Positions 8,053 to 54,075 of a stretch of 64,000 bases of DNA are shown in pieces. Both the position numbers and the translations under genes were made by a program. Position 1 is the first letter of the stretch; each line of letters starts with the position of its first letter. The stretch comes from a virus: UHGV virus genome UHGV-1375844. One strand, 5' to 3'. The notes under the pieces are model-generated. The model was given only the letters and a program-made list of their open reading frames with translations, searched no databases and was not told the origin of the DNA.

Positions 8053-8412
8053 TTAGCCTTTCTTCATCAGCTCGCGCTTGATCTCGTCTGTGCGCATCGT
8101 GACGTCAGCAGCGGTGATCGCCTCGTTCAGTTTCACAATGTCCTCGATTTCCTGCGGCGACTTCTCTGCCAGATGGTAAATGGCTGCACGAATCACGTCA
8201 GAACGGGTGAACTTCTCAAAGCGAGGGATGAATTTCATCATCTCCAGCAGATCGAAGTATTCGTCCTCCAGCGACATGGTACGGCTCTTTATTTTCTCTT
8301 TCCCACGAGTCGGGCGGCCCTGTGGTCTGACTGGCTGGCGCAACGGCGTGCTGTTTTTGGCCGGAGCATCCGGTTCTTTGCGCTTGGCAAGGTCTCCCAT
8401 CTTCATGGACAT
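8053..8412 (-). CDS. ParG-like ribbon-helix-helix partition protein (putative centromere-binding)
   Basis: Basic disordered N-terminus then RHH-like segment (KSRTMSL / EDEYFDLLEMM / RSDVIRAAIYHLAE); immediately downstream of ParA-like gene. Confidence 0.5.
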   Translation of the reverse strand: MSMKMGDLAKRKEPDAPAKNSTPLRQPVRPQGRPTRGKEKIKSRTMSLEDEYFDLLEMMKFIPRFEKFTRSDVIRAAIYHLAEKSPQEIEDIVKLNEAITAADVTMRTDEIKRELMKKG

Positions 8413-9077
8413 TACTCTTCCTCCAGACTCAAGATATAATCAACAAACTGTTCAAACTCGGCTTCTGCCTTCTTGTCGCGTTCGGCGCCAGTCATTTCAA
8501 AGATAGAGCGACCAGCCTCTTCTGCATCATCGTAAACGTTACGGTTGTACAAATTGACCGGTGCAGCTTCGATACCAAACGTCTCAACGATTTCTTTGGC
8601 GGCCAGAATACGCGACACCTGGGAAGGTAGTGACGGGCACTGGTTGATAACGGCACGTATTTTCACCTTCTCGTTCACATTGCGTACATTGTCGATAATC
8701 GGGTCGATGTCGCGCAGCGATTTCAGGTCACGACGTTTAGGGCGCAGCGGTATGACGATAACATCAGCCATCAGCATAGCTTGTCGCTGGATTTCGGAGT
8801 CGAAGCCCCCTGCGTCTACAACCACGTAATCGAAGCGCCCCTGAAGCGATTTGAGATGCTTAACGACGTCTTCCTGAACGTAAGCGAAAGGAATGAGATC
8901 GAGATCTTCATTCTGTCGACGGTCTTCGCACCAGCTGGTAGTGGTGCGCTGGATGTCGATGTCGGTAACTTGGATTTTCTTTTTCTTTTTGACTTTCAGG
9001 CAAACCGCTATTTGCTGGGCAACGGTCGATTTACCCGGGCCACCCTTCGTGCCGCCAACCACAATGATCCTAGTCAT
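8412..9077 (-). CDS. ParA/ParF-family partition ATPase
   Basis: Deviant Walker A GGTKGGPGKST, 221 aa. Confidence 0.8.
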   Translation of the reverse strand: MTRIIVVGGTKGGPGKSTVAQQIAVCLKVKKKKKIQVTDIDIQRTTTSWCEDRRQNEDLDLIPFAYVQEDVVKHLKSLQGRFDYVVVDAGGFDSEIQRQAMLMADVIVIPLRPKRRDLKSLRDIDPIIDNVRNVNEKVKIRAVINQCPSLPSQVSRILAAKEIVETFGIEAAPVNLYNRNVYDDAEEAGRSIFEMTGAERDKKAEAEFEQFVDYILSLEEE

Positions 9078-9111
9078 TGAATAGTTCCCTTTGCGTGAAT
9101 TATTGTCGTAT

Positions 9112-9130
9112 GAAACAACTTGTTTTCTTA
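9112..9130. promoter_or_regulatory. motif B copy upstream of ParA-like gene
   Basis: GAAACAACTTGTTTTCTTA followed by TATGCGATAT. Confidence 0.45.
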
Positions 9131-9272
9131 TATGCGATATAGCCTAAATGCCTACGGCTGCGGTGTAAAGGTGAAATGGTAGGTATTATCGAGATAGAGA
9201 GGGTCTTGAGATTAAGAATGAGAAGAGGTAAACAACTTTTGGCGAGAAGGCGGCACATAGCCGCCAGACTGT

Positions 9273-41350: not shown

Positions 41351-42250
41351 TTATGCCGGTAAAGCAATTTCAAGTGGTTTATCCAAAGGCTGTTTGTCGA
41401 ACGCCAGCAGCGGCAGAGTTTCTGGCAACGAGCGACCAAAATCCGGGTTGCGGTACACCCCATATAACGGTGAGGTGAAGCTCAGGTTATGAATATCTTT
41501 GAGTAGCTTCACGATGCTGGCTTCATCCACCAGGCTGTCGGCAATATCCTGAATGGTAGTGCCTCGGTTACGCCCGGCTTTGGCCAGTGAACTGTTCTTG
41601 TGGTAGTCGGCAACCAGATCACGCAGCGCACGACGACGGCGAGATTCGCTCATGGCGAACAGCTCTTTGACGATCGCTTCGTTGTCGCCAGGGTCGGAAC
41701 GAAAATGACGCTGGAAGACGCGCAGCGCACTCTCATAGCTCTTCGGACGCTCCGGACGGATGAACTGGAACCCTGCTTTCATGGCGAACGGGTTGTATTT
41801 GCTCATCGATGACTGGATCTCGATGATTGGCCGGTCATGCATCCTGCTAACCAGGTTAATCATTCGATAGGAGACGCCGACACCGCGATACTGCGTATCC
41901 ACTACAGAACGGCTGATCACTGCAAAGTTATTGTTCACGTACCGGCCCCAATACTGGTTGGCCACAGTGGTATTGGTCGTTGGCTTCAGCTTAGGAAACA
42001 TGCGATGGCGAGGTGCCAGTAGAAGTTTCGGATAGGCCATGACCACGACGCCCACCAGCCGGCCGTCCAGCTCGCAGCGATAATACGTGGGCGCGAACGG
42101 TTTACCGTCCGTCTTGTAGTGCAGCGACTTCAGCGCGTGCCAGTCTTCAACAGTGCCTTTGGATACGGTCATTCGTTCCAGAAAGTCCAGATGCCGCGGG
42201 AACTCTTCCGGACGGTAGCGTTTGATGATGATGTCTGCCATGTCGATCAC
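41351..42250 (-). CDS. GNAT-like fold protein (tentative)
   Basis: 299 aa; segment AVISRSVVDTQYRGVGVSYRMINLV resembles GNAT motif A. Confidence 0.35.
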   Translation of the reverse strand: MIDMADIIIKRYRPEEFPRHLDFLERMTVSKGTVEDWHALKSLHYKTDGKPFAPTYYRCELDGRLVGVVVMAYPKLLLAPRHRMFPKLKPTTNTTVANQYWGRYVNNNFAVISRSVVDTQYRGVGVSYRMINLVSRMHDRPIIEIQSSMSKYNPFAMKAGFQFIRPERPKSYESALRVFQRHFRSDPGDNEAIVKELFAMSESRRRRALRDLVADYHKNSSLAKAGRNRGTTIQDIADSLVDEASIVKLLKDIHNLSFTSPLYGVYRNPDFGRSLPETLPLLAFDKQPLDKPLEIALPA

Positions 42251-42501
42251 CTGCGCTCGATATTGGCATTAATGAAATCCAGGCGAAGAGATTCCATCGC
42301 TCCCACCATGACATACGGGCGCCCGCCGTTATGCCAGCAATCAAGAACACTGCCGTCATTGTTGATCATCAGCAGCGCCAGGCTCTGGCTTTTGCCTTCT
42401 CTGGCGTACTGAAGTGCTTCTTCCAGCAGGCGGATGACTTCAACGTTATTGTTGTCAGCCTCTTTCGATGGCTTCAGCTCTACGATCTTCAAATCAGGCA
42501 T
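42247..42501 (-). CDS. hypothetical protein (84 aa)
   Basis: Coupled by overlaps to both neighbours. Confidence 0.4.
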   Translation of the reverse strand: MPDLKIVELKPSKEADNNNVEVIRLLEEALQYAREGKSQSLALLMINNDGSVLDCWHNGGRPYVMVGAMESLRLDFINANIERR

Positions 42502-43132
42502 ATTCCACCTTCACGCGTTCTTTGTAGTGCTTGGTGATCTGCATATCCGGCCGCAGGGCGTTCTTCAGATCTTCGTGTGTCGTCGCCACCATTACCGTCG
42601 CGCCAACCTTACGAGCGGCACGCTGGAGGTTCGACGCAACAACCTGAGCGGTTACACGGTCGAGTACGGCACCAAATTCGTCGGCCGCCCACACTTTCGC
42701 GCCGGACTCGATTAGCTTGGCGATTTTGAGACGGTATTTCTGGCCGTCAGACATTTCGGATGGCTTGCGCACAAAGAGATAGGCGTCATTCAATCCGGCC
42801 ATAGACAACAGCCCCAGCGCTTCGCTGGTGGTTTTGCCCAGCTGGTCGATGACGTTAACCTCATTGTCGAAAGCAAAATCATCGATTGAGGCCACAGAAA
42901 GACCTTCATCCTTCATCTGGCGTTGCAGCTCGCGCAGCACAACGGATTTGCCTGAACCGGATTGTCCGGTGATGTACACAACATCACCCTGCTTCACTTC
43001 CAGCTCCAGATTGTCGTAAAGCGTCCACTCTTTTTCGTCCAGACCAAGACCGAACGATTCGGCAATTTCCAGCGTTCGCGTGGTTTTGTTCACGCGGGTC
43101 TGGAACGACACGTTGATGGTGTACTTACTCAT
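42494..43132 (-). CDS. ABC-type ATPase, nucleotide-binding domain only
   Basis: Walker A GQSGSGKS, signature-like MSDGQKYRL, Walker B VWAADEFG, H-loop ATTHED; 212 aa, no membrane domain. Confidence 0.65.
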   Translation of the reverse strand: MSKYTINVSFQTRVNKTTRTLEIAESFGLGLDEKEWTLYDNLELEVKQGDVVYITGQSGSGKSVVLRELQRQMKDEGLSVASIDDFAFDNEVNVIDQLGKTTSEALGLLSMAGLNDAYLFVRKPSEMSDGQKYRLKIAKLIESGAKVWAADEFGAVLDRVTAQVVASNLQRAARKVGATVMVATTHEDLKNALRPDMQITKHYKERVKVEYA

Positions 43133-43830
43133 GCAGCCAGCTCCCCGGAGGACACTTTCTCCGCATACGCCACGAAAGCGTTCACCCCGCGCTCTCCCGT
43201 GATTTCTTCCATGTGGGCGAGCAAATCCCCAACCACAATGGCAGAGCCAGCAGGAAGCGTTTTAAAGCCCAATACGTCGATGACACGGACTTCTTCAGCG
43301 GCCACTTCGCGACTGATCTCGGTGTGCTCTTCTTTCTGGCGTTCCGTCTCTTCGCCCAGATCGAGCACCAGAGAGCCGGTTTCCATCTCTTCGGTCATGC
43401 TGCCGACAAGCACATTCAGTTCACGCTCTTCAAAACCGAAGACCTCGACGTCGCCCAGCACCAGGGATTCCAGTTCCTGCTGCAATTTGATGGCGTCGTA
43501 ATCGATACTGGCAAGGCGGTTGTCTTCCAGACGCTTCGCCTTCACCTCTTCTTCATTCAGATCGTCGCGAACAATGACCGGCACACGCTCCAGACCAGCC
43601 AGAAGCGCCGCCTCGCGACGACCATGACCAGTAATGATGACGCCGTTCTTGTCGATCGTGATCGGCTGGTCAAAACCGCGCTTTTTGATGGCGGCAGCCA
43701 GATCGCGGATCTGCTGTTCATCATGTTTTTTGGCGTTCATCTCATACGGGATGAGTTCAGCCGGGTTTCGATAGACGATTTCAAAGTTCTTGGTCATTAC
43801 ATACGCTCCTTGTAGTAGTCGACCAGCCAC
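43129..43830 (-). CDS. ParB-like nuclease-domain protein
   Basis: ParB/Srx-like N-terminal region (ITGHGRREAALLAGLERVPVIV), acidic C-terminus. Confidence 0.55.
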   Translation of the reverse strand: MAGRLLQGAYVMTKNFEIVYRNPAELIPYEMNAKKHDEQQIRDLAAAIKKRGFDQPITIDKNGVIITGHGRREAALLAGLERVPVIVRDDLNEEEVKAKRLEDNRLASIDYDAIKLQQELESLVLGDVEVFGFEERELNVLVGSMTEEMETGSLVLDLGEETERQKEEHTEISREVAAEEVRVIDVLGFKTLPAGSAIVVGDLLAHMEEITGERGVNAFVAYAEKVSSGELAA

Positions 43831-44495
43831 ACCAGGGCTTCCCCGGCGTTCTCCATTTCGTTACCGGTGTTGATCCCCTGCTCTTTGATGATGGTTTTGA
43901 TGGTGTCGGCGACGCGATCTGACGCATCAAACGTCACTTTGAAGCGCATCGTCTGGTGTTCTGCGCCAACACGCTCCGTTTTCTCGCGGCGATCGTCGTC
44001 AGCTGGCTCATCATCGCCGCGGGAAAGCGCTTCCAGCGCTTCGAGATCAATGGCAGAGGCTTTGGCAAGGGTGGCCGCCATTTCATCGTCATAGGGGGCA
44101 ATATCGGAAAGCCGGTAGTCGATTTCAGACTGGATTTCTTCGATCAGTCGCTGCAAAGCGATCTGATCGTCTTCGCCGTAACGTTCGTTATCGACAAGTG
44201 ACATCTGCTTGGCCACCAGGTCGTTGATTTTGCCAACCGAGATGACAGGAACAGTCGAAATTCCCTGCTCTATCGCAGCCCGCCAGCGATGTTCGCCGCC
44301 GAGGATCTGGAAAGTGCCACCGTCCAGCTCACGGGCCAAAATTGGCTTAAAAAAGCCCAGCTTCTCGATAGAACCTTTCAGTTTTTCGAAGTTTTGCGCC
44401 CCCACCGAGTTGGTGTTCCAGGGATTCGGACACAGTTTCGCAACTTCAACCTGCAAAATCGTAATTTTCACATCCATTTTCTTGATACAATCCAT
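43797..44495 (-). CDS. ParB-like nuclease-domain protein
   Basis: Classic ParB box GGEHRWRAA; first gene of operon. Confidence 0.65.
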   Translation of the reverse strand: MDCIKKMDVKITILQVEVAKLCPNPWNTNSVGAQNFEKLKGSIEKLGFFKPILARELDGGTFQILGGEHRWRAAIEQGISTVPVISVGKINDLVAKQMSLVDNERYGEDDQIALQRLIEEIQSEIDYRLSDIAPYDDEMAATLAKASAIDLEALEALSRGDDEPADDDRREKTERVGAEHQTMRFKVTFDASDRVADTIKTIIKEQGINTGNEMENAGEALVWLVDYYKERM

Positions 44496-46889: not shown

Positions 46890-47417
46890 ATGACGAACAT
46901 AACTGACATCACCTACGGTATACCTGCAGAAGTCTGGCCGCGGGATTATTCTAACGTCGAGAAGGCACTCATGTTCTGGCGTAAATCCCTCATTCCTGTA
47001 AGGGTCACGATGGAGGATGGTCAGGTGTTCTGCATGTATGTGCAGGGTCTCATGTCATCCCGCAATAAGGTTGATCTTTGCTCTGCCCCGTTCGACAAAG
47101 AAAATCGTATAAGGCTCCCACTTGAGCGGATCAGCACGATTGAGTCGGGTGTGACAGAAAGTATTGGACACGACTTCAAGGGGCGAATCACGATTAACCC
47201 CGAATATGTTGATAATCGGCCATCTCGCCGGGACTTCTTCAAAATCTGTCGGCAGGCTCATGCGTCTCAGAAGTCTATAAGGGTGTACATGGCGGATGGC
47301 CGTGAAATTGAAGGTGTGTCATTAGGCGTTGACGCTTGCCAGGTCACGATCGGCATTGGTGAAGGTCGCAAGATGGTGGTCTTGTTCGATTGGGTCGAAA
47401 GGATTATACCGTTTTAA
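46890..47417 (+). CDS. hypothetical protein (175 aa)
   Basis: ORF directly after lipoprotein gene. Confidence 0.5.
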   Translation: MTNITDITYGIPAEVWPRDYSNVEKALMFWRKSLIPVRVTMEDGQVFCMYVQGLMSSRNKVDLCSAPFDKENRIRLPLERISTIESGVTESIGHDFKGRITINPEYVDNRPSRRDFFKICRQAHASQKSIRVYMADGREIEGVSLGVDACQVTIGIGEGRKMVVLFDWVERIIPF

Positions 47418-47430
47418 ATCTATAAGGGTA

Positions 47431-47460
47431 ATAACCGGCTAAGTCCGGTTATTATTTTAT
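47431..47460 (+). terminator. intrinsic terminator
   Basis: AATAACCGG-loop-CCGGTTATT followed by ATTTTATGG. Confidence 0.55.
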
Positions 47461-47632
47461 GGGTCACTTCTTCACTATATATTCCTTACAGCCAATTCCC
47501 GCCAATAATATATAAGGGCAATCTCACAATTGCGTTATTTATTTAGGGAACACCTTCAAGAAAAACGGATTTATTTCTAAGACTTTGATTTTTATTGAAT
47601 AAAATTTTTTCCTGCTACCTTACAAAAAATAC

Positions 47633-47660
47633 TTGCTTTTAAAATTCATATAGCGATAAT
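47633..47660 (+). promoter_or_regulatory. sigma70-like promoter
   Basis: TTGCTT, 16-nt spacer, GATAAT; in AT-rich UP-like region about 80 nt upstream of ATG 47739. Confidence 0.5.
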
Positions 47661-47738
47661 TACACACATCGAAAGCGAACACGCTAACGATAAATAAAAA
47701 ACAAATTAATTTTCAATATTACATAAGGATTAAATATT

Positions 47739-48386
47739 ATGTCTAACGTTATCTCTAAAAAAGCTATCATCGACGCTGCTGTAGTTATCACTGAAGAGCT
47801 TCAGATCAAAGCAAATGAAGCAAGCCAGACACGCGAACAACGCGCTAAAAATGGAACTGCTACCAAAGCAGATAAAGCTAACGAGCTTGCAGCCACTACT
47901 AAACTTGCATACTTCACTAACAACGTATTAAACGCGCTTAAAGATGAAAAATTAGCTGGTGTCTTTTACTACGCGATTAAAGCCAGCAAGCAAGATCCAG
48001 AAGTATTTTTCCGTGAAGCGATGACTAATAGCTACTCTCTCGAAAAGCTGGTTTATCTGGTGAAGTCTATTAAGTCTGGCAAATGTGTTTATTCAGTCGC
48101 TGATATGTCAGGATCTCGCGTATTCGCATTAATCGAAATGATTAATGATGAAATGGAAACTTTTACTAATGGCGCTGTATTCGATTTAATGAATGAAGCT
48201 AAAAAAGCATGTGAGATTAAATTAGACGCTGGCTACACTCAAGCCAATCAGCTTATCAATTTGTGTGAACGTCTGGGACTGGTCGAGAAGATCAAAGGAA
48301 TGGGCGCTGCTAAAAACGGATCTCAGCAATATCGCTTTATCAAGAATGATTTTTATAACTATCTGGCTGAAGCGTTCAAAGCGTAA
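47739..48386 (+). CDS. hypothetical protein (215 aa), AT-rich cassette gene
   Basis: Own promoter and terminator; AT-rich codon usage. Confidence 0.55.
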   Translation: MSNVISKKAIIDAAVVITEELQIKANEASQTREQRAKNGTATKADKANELAATTKLAYFTNNVLNALKDEKLAGVFYYAIKASKQDPEVFFREAMTNSYSLEKLVYLVKSIKSGKCVYSVADMSGSRVFALIEMINDEMETFTNGAVFDLMNEAKKACEIKLDAGYTQANQLINLCERLGLVEKIKGMGAAKNGSQQYRFIKNDFYNYLAEAFKA

Positions 48387-48436: not shown

Positions 48437-48640
48437 ATGACAAGCTATGACCAGATCCTCGCGGAGTATCGCGCAAAATATCGCGCTTATAAACTTGAAT
48501 TAATCGACGATCTAAAAGCGCAACGCGATAAACTAAATTTTACTTTTGCTGATTTGCTTAACAGTAAAAGAGACTGTAAACGCAAGCGTGAATATTTGCG
48601 CTTGTCTGAAATGATCGGAAAACTGCAAAACAGCATTTAA
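48437..48640 (+). CDS. hypothetical small protein (67 aa)
   Basis: ORF between two copies of the same terminator hairpin. Confidence 0.45.
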   Translation: MTSYDQILAEYRAKYRAYKLELIDDLKAQRDKLNFTFADLLNSKRDCKRKREYLRLSEMIGKLQNSI

Positions 48641-48643
48641 ACA

Positions 48644-48670
48644 AAAGCGCCCACTATGGGCGCTTTTTTC
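48644..48670 (+). terminator. intrinsic terminator (second copy of GCGCCCACTATGGGCGC hairpin)
   Basis: Hairpin followed by TTTTTTCG. Confidence 0.65.
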
Positions 48671-49149
48671 GTTTCAGGATCTCCACCATAACGCGCCAAC
48701 AATGGCGCGTTTTCTTTTGTCTGGCGTTCACTCATTCACAACAAAAATAAGCTCCATAAAAACGCCACTGCGACGCGTTTTAACGTGTGGCAATACGTAC
48801 CCATAGCTAAAACAAAAAAGCGCTCAGAATGCGAGGTGTGGCGTTTTAGTGTATGGCTTATTTTATGCTGTCGTGGGCGTGATCGTCTGGCGTTATCTGG
48901 CGACGTGATCCGCGCCATCCTTCGGGACGTGTCGGCAATAATGGCGTGATCCGTGGGCGCTCGCGTATAGTCTCCACGTTGGCGCAACGTGTACGCGCTT
49001 ACAGTCTCGTTTATTCAGTGATTCATAATCACATAGCGAAAGCTATCCGGATGGCTCAGGGGCTGAAAAGCCCACCAGCACCACCCCAGCGCCTCTGTGC
49101 ATTTTCTGGTGTGATTCTGAGCGTCTCCCGCTCGGTTTCTACATAGAGG

Positions 49150-49262
49150 CAAACCCAGCCGTTTCCCGAAAATTCCCTGGCCGTTTCCCTACGGCTGCCC
49201 GAATCGCTCTCTGGCCGTTCCTGAAGTTTTCCCCTGCGGCAGCGGGCGTCCAAAAAGAAAGG
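49150..49262. repeat. iteron-like direct repeats (GCCGTTTCCC family), 4 copies
   Basis: CCAGCCGTTTCCC, CTGGCCGTTTCCC, CTGGCCGTTCC, GGGCCGTTTCC at roughly 25-35 bp spacing. Confidence 0.6.
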
Positions 49263-49284
49263 GCCGTTTCCAGCCCCTCCCCTC

Positions 49285-49767
49285 TCACACGCCAGGCAGG
49301 ATATGAATGCGGTTGCTGACATACATCTCTTTCACGAAGTCCCCGCATGTGACTTTCCATTCACTGACACCGGCTTCATAAACCACGTTTTTGCATTTAA
49401 GTGCATTGTCAGCGATACGCACACCCTGCGCTGTTGCTTCCTGGTCGGTGAAGTCGAACCCGGATTCAGTTTTGACCCACACGGCAATTTGTGTTGCCAG
49501 CTCGATGAGTTTTGACTGGCAGAAGCGACCGCGTCGTACCGGGAAGATAAATACCCCGAACCCCGCGGTGGTAACGTAGGCTTTTTCGAATACGCGTTTA
49601 TGTCGACGGTTACAGATAATGTTGCTGGCGATCTGCTGCTTCTCTTTCCCTGACAACTCAATGGTCTCATTGCCACGCCAGGCGCCCAGCACGCTTTTTT
49701 CAATGTCAGAGTAAGTCACGGAGATCGTGCCATGCTCGGGAGTGTTCACAGTAGCGATATAGTTCAT
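49285..49767 (-). CDS. hypothetical protein (160 aa)
   Basis: ORF with motif B immediately upstream. Confidence 0.5.
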   Translation of the reverse strand: MNYIATVNTPEHGTISVTYSDIEKSVLGAWRGNETIELSGKEKQQIASNIICNRRHKRVFEKAYVTTAGFGVFIFPVRRGRFCQSKLIELATQIAVWVKTESGFDFTDQEATAQGVRIADNALKCKNVVYEAGVSEWKVTCGDFVKEMYVSNRIHILPGV

Positions 49768-49780
49768 CGAGATAATCCTT

Positions 49781-49816
49781 TAAACAATTTGTTTTCTTGA
49801 TGGTTTAATTATCGCT
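49781..49816 (-). promoter_or_regulatory. motif B promoter/operator copy
   Basis: Minus strand reads GCGATAATTAAACCATCAAGAAAACAAATTGTTTAAAGGA then ATG. Confidence 0.5.
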
Positions 49817-49990
49817 ACGCGTATCAGGCGTCCAAGCGCTCTATTCCGGCATCTGTTTGCCTGAAGGGAGTCAGAGGGTCGTTCGGTAGCCTGGCGGTAA
49901 GAGGTGGGTGTTTTGCCTGATGTGATGAGGTTGGTATATCTGGCGGGCAAGCGGTGCTATCTTGGCCGCAGGTAACTCAGGAGACTCAAG

Positions 49991-50179
49991 ATGTTAGATA
50001 AACTGGATAATCTGCAATTAAGCGAAGAAGAGGCAACGGCTCTGGCCCAGCTCGTCAAACGACTCACCTGGACTGATATGCGAGGCTGTGCCGTTGACGA
50101 TGATGAGGCGTATACCATCAGTGATGCGGTCGCCAAATTGCAGAAGAGTCTCGCTGAAGCAGGCTTCGCTCCGCGATAG
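49991..50179 (+). CDS. hypothetical small protein (62 aa)
   Basis: AGGAG RBS 6 nt before ATG. Confidence 0.4.
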   Translation: MLDKLDNLQLSEEEATALAQLVKRLTWTDMRGCAVDDDEAYTISDAVAKLQKSLAEAGFAPR

Positions 50180-50206
50180 GCCACCAGCAAGGGTGGCCCC
50201 GTTCTC

Positions 50207-50488
50207 TTAGTGGAGCAGACCGACGTCGATGGTGTCGCCGGAGTCTGTGATGCGGATCATCAGCATGGCGAAGGCATTTAACGGATAGCCTGCGTGCCAC
50301 TCCGGGAAACGATCGTCTCGCATGAAATCGGCAATGTCATACACGCTGTCCTGAAAACGGAAGAAGCGGGTGGCGCTCTGCTCGTCGTATTCAACATGAT
50401 CCATCTCCTGCTGTTCTGCCGGCGACAGGTCCAGCCAGGACTCCAGGTAAACATTTTCAGCTTTAGGGGTAATTGTAAAATCGGTCAT
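50207..50488 (-). CDS. hypothetical acidic protein (93 aa)
   Basis: ORF with motif B upstream and GAGGA RBS. Confidence 0.5.
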   Translation of the reverse strand: MTDFTITPKAENVYLESWLDLSPAEQQEMDHVEYDEQSATRFFRFQDSVYDIADFMRDDRFPEWHAGYPLNAFAMLMIRITDSGDTIDVGLLH

Positions 50489-50506
50489 GTGCTTAATCCT
50501 CAGTGC

Positions 50507-50542
50507 GTAAACAATTTGTTTTCTTGTTGGTGTAATTATCGC
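50507..50542 (-). promoter_or_regulatory. motif B promoter/operator copy
   Basis: Minus strand TGCGATAATTACACCAACAAGAAAACAAATTGTTTAC. Confidence 0.5.
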
Positions 50543-50615
50543 AGTGTGAATAAGGCAGAAAACATTTTGTTATCGGGGGCAAGTAAGTGGCGCGGGATTC
50601 GCGCCACTGGCGGGA

Positions 50616-51008
50616 TTAGGCGAACACGCTTTCAGGGATGTAATCATCAATGAGTGCGCCGGAGTTAATGCGCAAACCGTACTGACCCATCCAGGTGCTG
50701 TTAGGGTTAAGATCTGAGGTGAACAGCGCGTTCACTTTCGTCATAAGCGATTCGAACATCGTACTATCGACGGTGCGGAAGTAGGCTTCCAGTTTGAGCA
50801 GTAGCGGATCTGATGCGTCGCTAATGTTCTGGTAGCCAATGGCGTATGTGCTCTTATCAGTACCCTTACGCACTAAGGTGCTGGTATGTACCTCAGTTCC
50901 GGTGGTGTTATCACGCACAACAACGGTCAGTTTGGCAGTGGCTTCGCCGGAGGTGGTCTCAGATGCATAATGCAGATCGAGTACCAGATTTTCACGTAAA
51001 ACAGTCAT
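50616..51008 (-). CDS. hypothetical protein (130 aa)
   Basis: ORF preceded by motif A copy. Confidence 0.5.
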   Translation of the reverse strand: MTVLRENLVLDLHYASETTSGEATAKLTVVVRDNTTGTEVHTSTLVRKGTDKSTYAIGYQNISDASDPLLLKLEAYFRTVDSTMFESLMTKVNALFTSDLNPNSTWMGQYGLRINSGALIDDYIPESVFA

Positions 51009-51047
51009 TATCTTCTCCCTGTGTTAGACCCCTTTTATATTATTGTC

Positions 51048-51063
51048 ATAAGTAACTACTTAC
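51048..51063. promoter_or_regulatory. motif A palindrome copy (variant)
   Basis: ATAAGTAACTACTTAC upstream of 50616..51008. Confidence 0.4.
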
Positions 51064-51138
51064 AATACAGAGTAGCCAAAAAAGCCCCGAAGGATGGACG
51101 GGGCTGTCGTAAATTCGACTAAACGCTTTTGCACATGG

Positions 51139-51450
51139 TCAGGCTGTGGCTTGAAGAGAGACGCGCTGTATTTCCTGCTGGGCTGCTTTATTGGCTTCAA
51201 GTAATGCCAGCTCAAGCTCCCCTTCTGGCCATATCATTTGTTTGGACACCCATCCTGTTTTCCCCTGGCGTCTGACACTCATCACATAGCGCGAGCGGGC
51301 GCCATTTTCGAACGTGACAAGTGTCTCCTTGAAGAGCCTGATGGATGTACCGTTTGCGATAACATCAAGGAGAGTCAGTTGCTTCAGTATTGTTGGCTTG
51401 GCCTTTTTTGGCTGCCCAACACTCAGTCTGGAAATCATCCCGATATTCAT
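51139..51450 (-). CDS. hypothetical protein (104 aa)
   Basis: ORF 51139..51516 trimmed to MNIGMISRL; the upstream 22 codons are the motif B element read in frame. Confidence 0.45.
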   Translation of the reverse strand: MNIGMISRLSVGQPKKAKPTILKQLTLLDVIANGTSIRLFKETLVTFENGARSRYVMSVRRQGKTGWVSKQMIWPEGELELALLEANKAAQQEIQRVSLQATA

Positions 51451-51460
51451 ACACAACTCC

Positions 51461-51497
51461 GTAAACAATTTGTTTTCTTGATGGCGTAAATAATACC
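51461..51497 (-). promoter_or_regulatory. motif B promoter/operator copy
   Basis: GTAAACAATTTGTTTTCTTGATGGCGTAAATAATACC on plus strand. Confidence 0.5.
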
Positions 51498-51590
51498 AGT
51501 GTGAAAACGGTGACAAAGCGTGTCGTTACGGCGCTGCGCTGCCCCGGAGGTGGCAAACAACAAAAAGCCACCGTGCTGGTGGCCTCACTC

Positions 51591-51809
51591 TTAATCTTCT
51601 TCGTCCGGGAACTCGCTGTGTACCGCGTCCACCAGCTGCCGCTTTTCATCTTCACTCAGCAGGTGCCAGATATCCTTCCCTTTGGGCGATTCCCCTTCTG
51701 CCGGGACGAACGACCATAGCTTGCGGTGCAGTTCCGGCCCTACAGCATCCAGACATTCGGCCAGCGAATCCACACTCCACACCTCAACCAGCACAGGCAT
51801 CTTAATCAT
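51591..51809 (-). CDS. hypothetical acidic protein (72 aa)
   Basis: ORF trimmed to MIKMPVLVEV start to avoid overlap with the next gene. Confidence 0.4.
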   Translation of the reverse strand: MIKMPVLVEVWSVDSLAECLDAVGPELHRKLWSFVPAEGESPKGKDIWHLLSEDEKRQLVDAVHSEFPDEED

Positions 51810-51819
51810 CTCTTCGCCC

Positions 51820-52038
51820 TCACTTCGTTTCTGACGTTGTGCAGTTCCACGCGACGGACATTGGGCTGTCCTCGATATGGAAATCAAACGTCCCTTCTCT
51901 GTACCCTTCAGAGATAAGCGTCGCTACGCGAGTAGTGACATCCTGGGAACGGATAACGTCATCGAGGGAGATCTGGAGTTCGTCAGTGCATGTCTCTTCT
52001 CCGCAAAGGGTGATGCTGATATTAAGATGCTTGTACAT
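51820..52038 (-). CDS. hypothetical protein (72 aa)
   Basis: ORF with motif B upstream. Confidence 0.45.
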   Translation of the reverse strand: MYKHLNISITLCGEETCTDELQISLDDVIRSQDVTTRVATLISEGYREGTFDFHIEDSPMSVAWNCTTSETK

Positions 52039-52053
52039 GTGTTTCTCCTTTGT

Positions 52054-52089
52054 CTAAACACGTTGTTTTCTTATTGGTGTTATTATCGC
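52054..52089 (-). promoter_or_regulatory. motif B copy in divergent region
   Basis: CTAAACACGTTGTTTTCTTATTGGTGTTATTATCGC between minus gene start 52038 and plus gene start 52181. Confidence 0.5.
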
Positions 52090-52180
52090 AATAAGAAAAC
52101 GGGGAAAAAGCATTCATTAAAGGCTGATGTGTTTGTGTCGATTTATTGCTATGTATGTATCTGGCTAACTCAGAGGGAAT

Positions 52181-52426
52181 GTGATGAGCACTAACAACTA
52201 CACAGACGGCTACTTCAGCATCGATGTCGAGAGAGGCGAACTGCTACATGGCGGCGCCTCTGTTGGACGCATTATTCTGGTCAACGGCCAGATTTACACA
52301 GAGCTGGACGATAGCAGTGCAGACACACCTGTCGTCTCCGGTCCCTTCGGGACAAGAGAGGAGGCGTTAGATGATTTGTGGGACAACAGGGATGATGCAA
52401 ATCAGGGCAGCGAGATTTTCGAATAA
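52181..52426 (+). CDS. hypothetical acidic protein (81 aa)
   Basis: GAGGGA RBS before ATG. Confidence 0.45.
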   Translation: MMSTNNYTDGYFSIDVERGELLHGGASVGRIILVNGQIYTELDDSSADTPVVSGPFGTREEALDDLWDNRDDANQGSEIFE

Positions 52427-52604
52427 ACGTCCTCGGCAATTTCGCCACCAAAACCCTTAACCCTTTACACTAGCTCTGGCTTCCCGACATGAGCGTGCGA
52501 AGCTAGTCTGGTCTCAACACTCAATTGCGGGACTCACAAGTTCCCGCAATATTCAGGTTAACGAGAAGCAAGACACACTCCCGCAGCGCTCCCTCGCTCT
52601 TTAC

Positions 52605-52750
52605 CGGGATGCATCCGTTTCCTGACCTGAAGCCAGCCTTTTCCCGGTTCGCATGACGGGATTCTCCCCGTTTCCCTGAAAAACCCAGCCGTTTCCCTGC
52701 GGCGATGCTCCCGTTTTCCAGTAGGGATGCAGCCTTTTCTCTGGATGGCC
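52605..52750. repeat. iteron-like direct repeats (GCCGTTTCCC family), about 6 copies
   Basis: CATCCGTTTCC, CAGCCTTTTCCC, CCCCGTTTCCC, CAGCCGTTTCCC, CCCGTTTTCC, CAGCCTTTTCTC at about 22-28 bp spacing. Confidence 0.6.
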
Positions 52751-52979
52751 CGCAGGTTGACCGTAGGGGTGGGGAGGGACGTTACGGGAGATAAAATCAT
52801 GGCTTGAATAAATACGGGAAAAGTAGCGATCCCCCTCTTCCCCTTCCCACTTATACCTCCAGTTAAATCTCTGCGTTCCTCTCTCCTTTAATCGAATCTG
52901 TCTTCCCTCCGATAAGGCTCAATACGATGACTACCTCTGTACGTGAAATGGGTGGTTCGTACTCTCTGCCGGCATATGT

Positions 52980-53470
52980 CTTTTTGCGCTTCTTGAGGCT
53001 GTTCTTCTATGCGTTTTCTTCTGGGTTGTTTTCGTCTCTTTGGGTGTTCTTCTTCTCTGGGTATTGAGTAATGGCAGGTGTGCTTTCCTCTTCGTTTACT
53101 TGCTGAGAAGGAAGTGTGGGGAATGGCAGTAGGGCGCTTTAGTTGTTCTCTGCATATCAAGTAATAGCGTTCCCTGCTTTTCAGGACTTTGCGCTCTCTT
53201 CAGGGGTAATGGTGGGTAAGTAAGATTGCAACGGCTCCTGTTCTGGTCTGGGTTTGCCCGGGGTTGCATTCTGAGCGCTGTTCTCTGTGTTTTGGGTAAT
53301 GGCATGTAGAGGATTGCGTGCGCGAGCTGCGTCTCGGTTGCCTGGTGGCATTAGGTGGGTGGTCGGTAGCCTGGGGTCAAGAGGTGGGTCTATTCCATAG
53401 CCTGGTGGTAAGAGGTGGGTAGTTTCCGGGGGTTGTGGGCAATGGCGCCTCTGGGTTTCCCGCGGGTGGG
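52980..53470. repeat. degenerate tandem direct repeats in ORF-free region
   Basis: Recurring TTCTCTGGGT...GGTAATGGC units (period roughly 75-80 bp) and 3 copies of TAGCCTGG.GGT.AAGAGGTGGGT; a fourth copy of the latter lies at about 49871. Confidence 0.55.
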
Positions 53471-53510
53471 ATTAATTTGTTTTCTTGCTGTAGAAAACAA
53501 CTTGTTTAAA
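53471..53510. promoter_or_regulatory. motif B copies in both orientations
   Basis: ATTAATTTGTTTTCTTGC and GAAAACAACTTGTTTAAA. Confidence 0.4.
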
Positions 53511-53706
53511 TGGGCAATTTAACGCAATCAGAGCGCTTTTGAGCGTGTCTGTTTTTGGGTGGTGTGTTGAGTCGTTAGAGATGCTTTCGTCGCGAGGTGA
53601 TTGATTCTGGTGGGCAGGATAGCGGGTATAAGAGATGGCATGTGAAAACGTCAACTTTTTAGACTAAATCGGGAGAATGCATTGACATTTCTTTGATGTG
53701 TTATTT

Positions 53707-53731
53707 ATTTGTTTTCTCATATGCGTAATTA
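53707..53731. promoter_or_regulatory. motif B-like copy
   Basis: ATTTGTTTTCTCATATGCGTAATTA (compare 9112..9130). Confidence 0.35.
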
Positions 53732-54075
53732 ACTGAAAGCCCTTGTCACGCCTGGTCTGGTGTAGGTTGGGAGAGTGGAGAAAGTGGCGATCAACGGACT
53801 CTTATAGAAATCCTCATTTTGTGACCGCCAATGTCAACGATTTGACTAAATCAGATGGTCGAGTTCATCGTTGATTTGCTCTCTCAGGGAGGAATCGTTT
53901 ACACCCCACGCGTCAATCCTTTGCCTCAACTCTGGACTGAATTGCATATAGATGCTGTGGATGATTTGTGGGGTAGGGGTTAAACCTCTCATCGCAATGC
54001 ACTGGTACAGGTATGACTTTTCACTGAACACTGTTAAATGCCCTCATTTGATTGAAAAGTGCATTTTAACCTTAG

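What the first reader, a model, noticed from the sequence alone, without database searches (positions are those of the whole stretch)
48650..49285. Second iteron cluster of the same GCCGTTTCCC family, 3 kb from the first, at the convergence point of plus- and minus-strand transcription
Four GCCGTTTCC(C) repeats at 49150-49262 plus TGGCG/AATGGCG-type repeats at 48690-48960 echo the repeats at 52.6 and 53.0-53.4 kb. The two repeat regions flank the small-gene block 49285-52426, so the same DNA-binding protein could act at both sites (looping or handcuffing, inference).
Basis: seen in the sequence. Interest (0 to 1): 0.45.

Follow-up and report, generated by a model that had tools for sequence, protein, structure and literature searches.

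The report
Conserved paired DNA-box arrays, phage-plasmid
Two short arrays of the same 10-base box (GCCGTTTCCC) sit in two gene-free, terminator-bounded gaps of an SSU5-type phage-plasmid and are conserved from Salmonella to Moellerella; they are real protein-binding-type DNA sites but are not the plasmid's replication iterons, and their binding protein is still unknown.

Summary
The repeats are real. The exact core CCGTTTCCC occurs four times in 64 kb, as two pairs 22 and 21 bp apart, one pair in each cluster, all on the + strand (0.5 expected). With degenerate copies, cluster 1 (49158-49272) has 4-5 units and cluster 2 (52614-52741) has six.

The window is an SSU5/pHCM2/pMT1-type phage-plasmid. 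Both clusters lie in long, never-annotated gaps found in about 800 related plasmids. Units 1a and 1b are invariant in 17 non-redundant relatives. The box persists in both gaps even in a Moellerella relative whose gaps are otherwise unalignable.

The label "iteron" is not supported in the replication sense. The true RepA iterons (AACCACTGTAGAGAGC type) are unrelated and lie outside the window, and the arrays are unchanged across three replicon types. No ORF and no conserved RNA structure spans them. Gap 1 is bounded by convergent terminators, and unit "1d" is itself part of one.

The TGGCG/AATGGC "echo" is weak. Both motifs are locally enriched, but they are patchily conserved and belong to different repeat families.

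Best reading: double-stranded DNA binding arrays for one element-encoded protein acting at both sites (about 0.7). My leading specific guess is a remote, split centromere for an orphan ParA-partner system (about 0.3). Rivals are lytic-origin iterons, boundary or silencing sites, and an RNA-level motif.

The parts
48643..48667 (+). Intrinsic terminator 1 ending the + strand operon (helicase ... 67-aa gene 48437-48640). It is bidirectional in shape.
   Evidence: 11-bp stem plus U-run; -16.9 kcal/mol, z -4.6. Invariant in relatives.
48690..48711 (+). Intrinsic terminator 2. The stem is conserved and the loop is free to vary.
   Evidence: -14.8 kcal/mol, z -4.9. The stem is invariant; the loop reads ACAA/TTGT/TAGT/TCAT/ATGA in different relatives.
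48694..48985 (.). TGGCG-rich stretch with three GTGATC (GATC) boxes at 48879, 48905 and 48946. Function unknown; conservation is only patchy.
   Evidence: TGGCG occurs 7 times on + and 3 times on - in 311 nt, the window maximum. Only the middle GATC box is widely conserved (12 of 17 relatives).
49151..49189 (+). Core module of cluster 1: unit 1a (49158-49167) and unit 1b (49180-49189), 22 bp apart, with an A-tract spacer. 1b reads GCCGTTTCCCTACGGC (a GCCG-N8-CGGC frame).
   Evidence: Exact GCCGTTTCCC twice. 17/17 and 16/17 non-redundant relatives are identical here, against 79% mean conservation for the gap. Homologous to 52668-52697 (family D8).
49214..49240 (+). Degenerate units 1c (GCCGTT-CC, 49214) and 1c' (GTTTTCCCCTGCGGC, 49226-49240).
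   Evidence: Relatives read GCCGTTTCTG ... TTCCCTGCGGC at these positions.
49243..49285 (-). Intrinsic terminator of the minus-strand gene 49285-49767. It contains unit '1d' (49263-49272) in its upper stem and loop.
   Evidence: -25.3 kcal/mol hairpin with a GAAA loop and a U-run. In the divergent Klebsiella relative the terminator is a different hairpin without the box.
52614..52741 (+). Cluster 2: six units (52614, 52636, 52667, 52688, 52710, 52732). Unit 2d reads GCCGTTTCCCTGCGGC.
   Evidence: Conserved in SSU5, pHCM2, Cyrano, pECOH89, Klebsiella, L113 and Moellerella. Box columns 0.705 versus spacer columns 0.605.
52816..52835 (-). Conserved terminator-like hairpin on the minus strand, just upstream (in the minus direction) of cluster 2.
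   Evidence: -13.2 kcal/mol. Alifold z -12 for 52810-52898 on the minus strand.
49285..52426 (.). Block of small genes bracketed by the two clusters. It consists of 4-5 mini-operons, each with a repeated promoter plus an AAACAATTTGTTT operator (49782, 50509, 51463, 52056). Gene content varies between relatives.
   Evidence: (families D1/D2). Gene tables of relatives.
8053..9077 (-). Candidate cognate system (inference): a ParA-like ATPase (8412-9077) plus a 117-aa partner with a basic tail (8053-8406). No repeat array lies next to it.
   Evidence: ParA/MipZ/CbiA Pfam hits. No repeats in 9078-9272 or in any relative's par locus. The partner's segment IKSRTxSxEDE(Y/F) and helix RSDV(I/F)RAA are invariant at 31-55% overall identity. 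It is expressed in the Cyrano lysogen (CYRAN_29, 9x; PMC9928086).

Best explanation
The GCCGTTTCCC units are recognition boxes in double-stranded DNA for one sequence-specific protein encoded by the phage-plasmid. They are arranged as two short, same-orientation arrays: 2-5 boxes in gap 1 and 3-6 in gap 2, spaced about two helical turns apart in the core family. The arrays lie in transcriptionally insulated, gene-free zones on either side of a variable block of small, individually repressed genes.

Shown:
- The arrays exist and are far above chance.
- They are non-coding and not RNA-structured.
- They are restricted to these two places on the 106-kb element.
- They are under strong purifying selection across the superfamily.
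- They are unrelated to the RepA iterons.

Inferred:
- The same protein binds both arrays (about 0.7).
- The most likely function is a remote, split centromere-like site for the element's orphan ParA + small-partner partition system. The two arrays would nucleate, and possibly pair, partition complexes (about 0.3 for this specific function).
For: Statistics: exact CCGTTTCCC occurs four times, only in the two clusters, on one strand. K-mer sharing between the gaps is far above shuffles.

Conservation:
- Gap 1 is found in 772 plasmids and gap 2 in 857, essentially never annotated with a gene.
- Units 1a and 1b are invariant in 17 non-redundant relatives. Box columns are better conserved than spacers (0.935 vs 0.826 in gap 1; 0.705 vs 0.605 in gap 2).
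- The box and the two-gap layout persist in the divergent K. pneumoniae pKSB1_7G.2 and in Moellerella pW18-2-b, where the flanking sequence cannot be aligned.

DNA rather than RNA or protein:
- No consistent ORF spans the arrays.
- The arrays fold no better than shuffles (z -0.35 and +0.56).
- There is no conserved alifold signal over them and no Rfam hit.
- The Moellerella units contain the dyad GTTTC-CC-GAAAC, whose 2-nt spacer cannot form a hairpin loop but suits a protein dimer.

Centromere guess:
- The ParA-like ATPase + partner operon is a core gene pair of the family (797 plasmids) and is expressed in the plasmid state.
- No repeat array lies beside it in any lineage examined.
- Apart from the RepA iterons, the only short-range repeat arrays on the whole plasmid are those in gaps 1 and 2.
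- The partner's putative DNA-contact segment is invariant while the rest of the protein diverges, matching an invariant DNA box.
- Terminators on both sides shield gap 1 from transcription.
Against: - No binder has been identified.
- The partner's RHH/ParG fold is only my reading of the sequence. The AF2 model is poor (pLDDT 65), Foldseek finds nothing, and Pfam finds nothing.
- Type Ib centromere-binding proteins normally autoregulate at repeats in their own promoter. Here the par promoter carries only the dispersed palindrome AAACAAnTTGTTT. That palindrome could itself be the partner's target.
- The arrays lie about 40 kb from the par operon.
- pMT1 lacks this ParA/partner pair yet keeps cluster 1. 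pMT1 is a recent, degraded derivative, so this counts only weakly.
- The 22-bp phasing is not universal: spacings are 33-37 bp in the distant lineages.
- Gap 2 holds other deeply conserved arrays that are equally eligible as the centromere (a 29-31-nt unit in three copies, and the GGGTAATGGC boxes).
Confidence: 0.35

Rival explanations
1. Origin-type iterons for lytic (phage-mode) replication. The arrays would bind an unrecognised initiator, and the two clusters would cooperate as a bipartite origin, as in phage P4 ori/crr (own knowledge), or act as origin plus control locus.
For: A scan of 2.9 million viral contigs for GCCGTTTCC-N13-GCCGTTTCC returned only two large groups: 63 SSU5-like loci and 34 lambdoid-type phages.

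In the lambdoid phages, 4-6 units of 22 bp (ATTCGGCnnnnnnGCCGTTTCCA, sometimes GCCGTTTCCTTGCGGC) lie inside a lambda-O-like initiator gene next to GATC triplets. That is a canonical ori-within-O arrangement.

Window units 1b and 2d (GCCGTTTCCCT[A/G]CGGC) share the GCCG-N8-CGGC frame. The best nhmmer hit of the lambdoid ori profile in the window is cluster 2. The element encodes its own replisome (DnaB-like helicase, primase, DnaE, ligase, RNase H, UvsW-like helicase) but has no known lytic origin.
Against: No O-like or other initiator homolog was found in the window or the rest of the closest plasmid by tblastn, phmmer or hmmsearch --max (best E 0.4). The nhmmer hit is not significant (E 0.15).

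The symmetric half-site of the lambdoid units (ATTCGGC) is absent here. No AT-rich unwinding element adjoins either cluster. The GATC boxes in gap 1 lie about 200 bp away and are not conserved. The phasing is not kept in distant lineages.
Confidence: 0.2
2. Boundary, silencing or looping sites. A different element-encoded protein would bind both arrays to insulate, loop or silence the bracketed block of small genes. One candidate is the pair of ParB-N (CTPase-like) proteins encoded at 43129-44495. This would resemble KorB/ParB-type long-range repression (own knowledge).
For: - The arrays bracket a variable block whose genes each carry their own operator-controlled promoter.
- The box core GTTTCCC resembles ParB/Noc/P1-boxA half-sites (tGTTTCAC, tATTTCCC, ATTTCAC). 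Unit 1a, GTTTCCCGAAAAT, resembles the Noc site ATTTCCCGGGAAAT. These comparisons are from memory and are a lead only.
- Two ParB_N proteins, one carrying a GGEHRWRAA motif that resembles the GERRxRAA signature, are core genes 4-5 kb away.
Against: The ParB-N proteins show no recognisable ParB-type HTH beyond residue ~108 and are strongly acidic. Most units are isolated half-sites in direct repeat, not 16-bp palindromes. No expression data link the arrays to the block.
Confidence: 0.2
3. An RNA-level or termination-related motif. The C-rich + strand boxes would act as Rho-utilisation sequences or as single-stranded RNA protein-binding motifs downstream of leaky terminators. One possible binder is the FljA-like RNA-binding regulator at 46890-47417. 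On the minus strand the box would read GGGAAACGG.
For: Both clusters lie at the 3' ends of convergent transcription units. The + strand is C-rich there (GC skew -0.20 at 49000-49399 and -0.10 at 52400-52999). Unit 1d is part of a terminator. A Flag1_repress (PF03614) protein is encoded upstream.
Against: Rho-utilisation (rut) sites are not normally conserved base for base, yet 1a and 1b are invariant. Two strong intrinsic terminators precede cluster 1 on the + strand, and one precedes it on the minus strand, so little RNA should reach it. The dyad GTTTC-CC-GAAAC points to double-stranded DNA. A Y. pestis RNA-seq study reported no pMT1 sRNA in gap 1.
Confidence: 0.08
4. Chance or low-complexity similarity without function.
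For: With one mismatch allowed, the 9-mer is only mildly enriched window-wide (25 matches vs 16.6 +/- 3.8).
Against: Exact-match clustering, k-mer statistics and deep conservation.
Confidence: 0.02

Closest known systems
Iterons of iteron-controlled plasmids (RepFIB/P1 RepA type, with origin and inc clusters flanking rep)
   Same: Short direct repeats in one orientation. Spacing is about 22 bp in the core family. There are two clusters a few kb apart that could pair ('handcuff').
   Different: The sequence is unrelated to this element's own RepA iterons. The arrays are not next to repA, which lies about 30-45 kb away around the circle. They are unchanged across three replicon types, and no Rep-like gene lies between the clusters.
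Lambdoid phage origins lying inside the O gene (mEp390 / Providencia PSTRCR_117lys / Klebsiella ST405-OXA48phi1.2 type O proteins)
   Same: The same 9-mer, GCCGTTTCC, and the same 22-bp period. There is a GCCG-N8-CGGC frame in some units, with up to 15 of 16 bases identical (GCCGTTTCCTTGCGGC vs GCCGTTTCCCTGCGGC).
   Different: Here the arrays are intergenic. No O-like initiator is encoded, there is no adjacent AT-rich/GATC block, and the palindromic partner half-site ATTCGGC is missing. The profile similarity is not significant.
Centromeres made of repeat arrays for small centromere-binding proteins. Examples from own knowledge: TP228 parH/ParG, pSM19035 omega sites at three promoters, pB171 parC1/parC2, and the dispersed centromeres of phage-plasmid N15.
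   Same: Arrays of short phased repeats, more than one array per replicon, and a ParA-type ATPase plus a small partner with a basic tail. The N15 and pSM19035 precedents cover centromere sites placed away from the par operon, or several of them.
   Different: No array lies at the par promoter. The partner's fold is unconfirmed. The boxes are 10 bp long and spaced 22 bp apart rather than contiguous 4-7-bp repeats. Binding is untested.
ParB/Noc/P1-ParB recognition sites (parS, NBS, box A)
   Same: The core GTTTCCC is of the xTTTCxC half-site type. Some units carry a partial dyad (GTTTC-CC-GAAAC). ParB_N-domain proteins are encoded nearby.
   Different: The units are mostly isolated half-sites in direct repeat. 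The local ParB-N proteins lack a detectable HTH. The site comparison rests on remembered consensus sequences and was not tested here.

Membership tests
RepA (IncFIB) iterons of this plasmid family | Sequence matches the repeats flanking repA | tested here: not met
   The repA-flanking repeats are of the (A/T)AACCACTGTAGAGAGC type with 21-bp phase. They have no similarity to GCCGTTTCCC.
RepA (IncFIB) iterons of this plasmid family | Location at or adjacent to the rep gene or origin | tested here: not met
   repA lies at record positions 1-1056 of the closest plasmid, outside the window. The arrays lie at record positions about 74.2 and 77.6 kb.
RepA (IncFIB) iterons of this plasmid family | Repeats co-vary with the replicon/initiator type | tested here: not met
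   The same box is present in members typed IncFIB, rep_cluster_488 (pECOH89) and rep_cluster_2469 (pKSB1_7G.2).
Iteron-like arrays in general | Direct repeats in one orientation, phased by an integral number of helical turns | tested here: inconclusive
   Spacings are 22/21/22 bp (also 31 and 34) in the core family. In distant lineages they are 33-37 bp.
Lambdoid ori (iterons within the O gene) | Array embedded in an O-like initiator gene | tested here: not met
   No consistent ORF spans the arrays. The gaps are unannotated in about 800 records.
Lambdoid ori (iterons within the O gene) | A cognate O-type initiator encoded by the element | tested here: not met
   tblastn, phmmer and hmmsearch with an O N-terminal domain profile against the window and the whole closest plasmid gave a best E of 0.4.
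Lambdoid ori (iterons within the O gene) | Sequence similarity of the array to the lambdoid ori profile | tested here: inconclusive
   The best nhmmer hit in the window is cluster 2, but E = 0.15. Individual units match at 13-15 of 16 positions.
Lambdoid ori (iterons within the O gene) | Adjacent AT-rich region with GATC repeats | tested here: not met
   There is no AT-rich block beside either cluster. The gap 1 GATC boxes lie about 200 bp away and are mostly not conserved.
Plasmid centromere (type Ib/II repeat-array type) | A ParA-type ATPase and a small centromere-binding partner encoded by the element | tested here: inconclusive
   ParA is confirmed (Pfam AAA_31/MipZ/CbiA/ParA). The partner has a conserved basic tail and a beta-alpha-alpha-like pattern, but no Pfam or fold support.
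Plasmid centromere (type Ib/II repeat-array type) | Repeat array adjacent to, and autoregulating, the par operon | tested here: not met
   There are no arrays within +/-4 kb of the par operon in the window or in the 12 relatives' par loci examined. Only the dispersed palindrome lies upstream of parA.
Plasmid centromere (type Ib/II repeat-array type) | Partner protein binds the array, and the array stabilises a replicon in cis | not testable with these tools
   This needs EMSA or ChIP and plasmid-stability assays.
ParB parS / Noc NBS sites | A 14-16-bp palindrome bound by a ParB-family HTH dimer | tested here: not met
   Most units are lone half-sites in direct repeat, with partial dyads only in 1a, 2c and the Moellerella units. 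The local ParB_N proteins show no HTH.
Structured non-coding RNA / known RNA family | Rfam match or conserved secondary structure over the arrays | tested here: not met
   There are no Rfam hits above noise. Alifold signal is confined to the terminator hairpins. The arrays fold no better than shuffles.
Intrinsic terminator (applies to unit 1d only) | GC-rich hairpin followed by a U-run directly after a stop codon | tested here: met
   49243-49285 on the minus strand: -25.3 kcal/mol, with a UUUCUUUUU tail. Related lineages show compensating stem variants.

The most novel reading that the evidence does not exclude
The two arrays form a bipartite, initiator-bound origin for the phage-mode replication of SSU5-type phage-plasmids, comparable to P4 ori/crr. 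The recognition unit is shared with a subgroup of lambdoid O-type origins. This would imply one of two things: origin modules have moved between lambdoid phages and phage-plasmids and are read here by an unrecognised initiator, or the arrays can capture or titrate the O protein of co-resident lambdoid phages.
Probability: 0.12. Interest if true: 0.7.

Novelty: new variant of a known kind. Interest (0 to 1): 0.45.

Why it matters
SSU5-type phage-plasmids include pHCM2 of S. Typhi, pMT1 of Y. pestis and many carriers of resistance genes in Klebsiella, E. coli and Enterobacter. How they are partitioned, where phage-mode replication starts and how their accessory blocks are controlled is largely unknown.

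I found no description of these arrays in the literature I could search. The arrays are among the most conserved non-coding sequences of the family. Together with the RepA iterons and the other gap 2 repeats, they are the only short-range repeat arrays on the element.

Identifying their binder would probably reveal either the centromere of an orphan ParA system or the lytic origin. Either result would give a handle for curing, typing or engineering these elements.

Tried and rejected
1. RepA iterons: rejected by direct comparison and by independence from replicon type.
2. Known RNA family or large structured RNA: no Rfam hits. The alifold scan of both strands on 17-20 non-redundant relatives found only terminators. 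The minus-strand RNA of 52.9-53.4 kb would be unstructured.
3. Hidden protein-coding gene or O-gene remnant across the arrays: all three minus-strand frames are open because of base composition, and the longest frame changes between relatives.
4. Published sRNAs: the Y. pestis sRNAs sR082 and sR083 on pMT1 map elsewhere.
5. The adjacent 160-aa protein as binder: the AF2 model is acceptable (pLDDT 81) but matches no DNA-binding fold (best Foldseek E 0.24). The gene is also missing at that position in the Moellerella relative.
6. An O-like initiator in the element: none found.
7. Homology of the arrays to lambdoid origins at profile level: not significant.
8. Distant homologs of the ParA partner outside the superfamily, sought to look for linked arrays: all hits are SSU5-type elements, and none has arrays near par.
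9. Confirming the partner's RHH fold: failed.
10. Large Klebsiella plasmids matching part of gap 2: these hold a transferred fragment beside a DUF262 gene between IS elements, so they are uninformative.
11. L085 and L096 from the viral scan: unrelated sequences, consistent with the ~3 chance matches I estimate for this pattern.
12. GATC cluster as an origin hallmark: not conserved.
Full report
**What the window is.** The region 48-54 kb matches Salmonella phage SSU5 at 83% and a Salmonella plasmid (pSA20094620.2, IncFIB) at 98%. About 780 further plasmids of Klebsiella, Escherichia, Enterobacter, Yersinia (pMT1), Salmonella (pHCM2), Citrobacter and Cronobacter also match. The window is therefore part of an SSU5-type phage-plasmid.

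In annotated relatives the finding lies in a 644-bp gene-free gap (48641-49284). This gap sits between a + strand gene ending at 48640 and a minus-strand gene at 49285-49767. The second repeat region lies in a 1.65-kb gene-free gap (52427-54075), also between convergent genes.

**Checking the observation.** GCCGTTTCC is exact at 49158, 49180 and 49263. Degenerate copies lie at 49214 and 49226-49240. Cluster 2 has six units at 52614-52741. All units are on the + strand.

The exact core CCGTTTCCC occurs four times in 64 kb, as two pairs 22 and 21 bp apart, one pair in each cluster. The expectation is 0.5 +/- 0.7.

Convergent termination is confirmed. Two strong + strand terminators lie at 48643-48667 and 48690-48711, and a minus-strand terminator at about 49243-49285 contains unit "1d".

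The TGGCG/AATGGCG "echo" is weak. TGGCG is locally the densest in the window, but it is partly made of hairpin-stem halves and is conserved in only 4-8 of 17 relatives. The 53.0-53.45 kb boxes belong to a different 27-nt repeat family.

**Conservation.** Gap 1 is found in 772 plasmids and gap 2 in 857, essentially never annotated with a gene. In alignments of divergent members the boxes are among the best-conserved columns.
- In 17 non-redundant relatives, units 1a and 1b are 100% and 99% conserved. The gap as a whole averages 79%.
- Box columns beat spacer columns in both gaps.
- A divergent Klebsiella member (pKSB1_7G.2) keeps AAACCCAGCCGTTTCCCGAAA and CCCGTTTCCCTGCGGCG in gap 1 and three units in gap 2.
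- The Moellerella plasmid pW18-2-b, whose gaps are otherwise unalignable, keeps CCGTTTCCCGAAACC units in both gaps on the same strand.
- In these distant lineages the spacing is 33-37 bp, so the 22-bp phase is not universal.
- The minus-strand terminator in pKSB1_7G.2 is a different hairpin, so unit 1d is a lineage-specific overlap.

**What the arrays are not.**
- *RepA iterons.* The true iterons flank repA, outside the window, and read AACCACTGTAGAGAGC with 21-bp phase. The arrays are unchanged in members with three different replicon types.
- *Coding sequence.* No consistent ORF spans them.
- *A structured RNA.* There is no Rfam hit. Alifold signal is restricted to terminators. The arrays fold no better than shuffles on either strand.
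- *Published pMT1 sRNAs.* These map elsewhere.
- In addition, the Moellerella dyad GTTTC-CC-GAAAC cannot form a hairpin (2-nt spacer), which points to recognition of double-stranded DNA by a protein.

**An unexpected relative.** I scanned 2.9 million viral contigs for GCCGTTTCC-N13-GCCGTTTCC. The scan returned 63 SSU5-like loci, 34 lambdoid-type phages and two unrelated sequences (L085 and L096), in line with the ~3 chance matches I estimate for this pattern.

In the lambdoid phages the same 9-mer forms 4-6 units of 22 bp (ATTCGGCnnnnnnGCCGTTTCCA). The units lie inside a lambda-O-like initiator gene, next to three GATC-containing AT-rich repeats, which is a textbook origin. Some of these units (GCCGTTTCCTTGCGGC) differ from window unit 2d by one base in 16.

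However, no O-like protein is encoded by the element. A profile of the lambdoid origins finds cluster 2 as its best window hit, but at E = 0.15. The lambdoid palindromic partner half-site is also absent here. I therefore treat this as a resemblance and a lead, not as membership.

**Looking for the binder.**
- *The adjacent 160-aa protein.* It is restricted to the family. It models acceptably (pLDDT 81) but matches no DNA-binding fold, and its gene is missing at that position in the Moellerella relative.
- *The two ParB_N proteins at 43129-44495.* The 232-aa one (43797-44495) carries a ParB-like GGEHRWRAA motif; neither has a detectable HTH. The similarity of the core GTTTCCC to ParB/Noc/P1-boxA half-sites rests on my memory of those consensus sequences and remains a lead.
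- *The ParA-type ATPase (8412-9077) and its 117-aa partner.* This pair is a family-core operon (797 plasmids). It is expressed in the Cyrano lysogen (CYRAN_29; PMC9928086). No repeat array lies beside it in the window or in the 12 relatives' par loci examined.
- Apart from the RepA iterons, no other short-range arrays exist anywhere on the plasmid except in gaps 1 and 2.
- The partner's putative DNA-contact segment is invariant while the rest of the protein diverges to 31% identity.
- Against this, its RHH fold could not be confirmed. Every par promoter also carries the dispersed palindrome AAACAAnTTGTTT, which might be its real target.

**Conclusion.** The label "iteron cluster" should be replaced by "paired arrays of a conserved protein-recognition box".

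I estimate about 0.7 that these are double-stranded DNA binding arrays for a single element-encoded protein. Within that estimate:
- about 0.3 for a remote, split centromere of the orphan ParA system;
- about 0.2 for lytic-origin iterons;
- about 0.2 for boundary, silencing or looping sites.

Outside it, I give about 0.08 to an RNA or Rho-related motif and about 0.02 to chance.

I found no description of these arrays in the literature I could search.

Noticed in passing
window 6051, 9113, 40922, 40947, 47699, 49782, 50509, 50560, 51463, 52056, 53495, 54642, 54693, 55071, 56741, 59875, 60592, 62143: The 13-bp palindrome AAACAATTTGTTT (up to 2 mismatches) marks about 19 mostly intergenic promoter regions: 35 strand-matches against 2.4 expected. 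The sites include those upstream of the DnaB-like helicase, ParA, the terminase/late operon and each small gene of the block. It looks like the dispersed operator of one global regulator (P1 C1-like logic). It is also present upstream of parA in distant relatives.
   Followed up: partly
window 52870-53850 (gap 2): This is about 1 kb of strongly conserved non-coding DNA (65-82% identity across genera). It has an extreme strand bias, with the + strand G+T-rich (GC skew up to +0.38, AT skew down to -0.45). It carries three 27-nt repeats containing GGGTAATGGC (= GCCATTACCC on the minus strand, 2 mismatches from the finding's box but inverted). It also carries three tandem 29-31-nt units, TAGCCTGGnGnnAAGAGGTGGGT (53333-53425), with a fourth copy at 49882-49914. 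These tandem units are recognisable even in Moellerella. Minus-strand RNA from this region would be unstructured and C/A-rich. Its function is unknown; an origin, a centromere or a Rho-loading zone are all possible.
   Followed up: partly
loci L015-L108 (IMG/VR lambdoid-type contigs), e.g. L098 10774-10880 and L097 5741-5850: A subgroup of lambdoid phages has its origin inside the O gene. The O-like protein belongs to phrog_9773 and resembles those of mEp390, Providencia PSTRCR_117lys and Klebsiella ST405-OXA48phi1.2. The origin is built from 22-bp GCCGTTTCCA/ATTCGGC iterons next to three (A/T)GATCTGT repeats.
   Followed up: partly
window 8053-9272: A ParA-like ATPase and its small partner with a basic tail form an 'orphan' partition operon. 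No centromere-type repeats lie nearby, either here or in the 12 relatives' par loci examined. In phage Cyrano the partner is annotated as a RelE/ParE toxin, which looks like a mis-annotation.
   Followed up: partly
window 46890-47417: A 175-aa protein gives a full-length match to Pfam Flag1_repress (PF03614, the FljA family, E 3e-89). It is annotated only as 'transcriptional regulator/repressor' in relatives. FljA is known as an mRNA-binding repressor (own knowledge).
   Followed up: no
window 47418-47738: A 320-bp AT-rich intergenic region (GC about 0.30) with many short direct and inverted repeats lies upstream of the conserved 215-aa gene (47739-48386).
   Followed up: no
window 41351-44495: An operon of two ParB_N-domain proteins (the 232-aa one, 43797-44495, carries a GGEHRWRAA motif and an acidic tail ending in a beta-alpha-alpha segment), an ABC-type ATPase and further ORFs is conserved throughout the family. 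Its function is unknown, and it is probably not a classical partition locus.
   Followed up: partly
alignment A1 columns ~615-625 (window 49238-49250): Several relatives (pHCM2, Klebsiella, E. coli members) carry a perfect Chi octamer, GCTGGTGG, between units 1c' and 1d. The window reads GCGGGCGT at the same position.
   Followed up: no
window 49033-49075: Two adjacent small hairpins have GAAA loops on the + strand (AUAGC-GAAA-GCUAU and GGGCU-GAAA-AGCCC). Relatives show some compensating stem changes (GGGG/CCCC, GGAG/CUCC). They are not significant in the alifold scan.
   Followed up: partly
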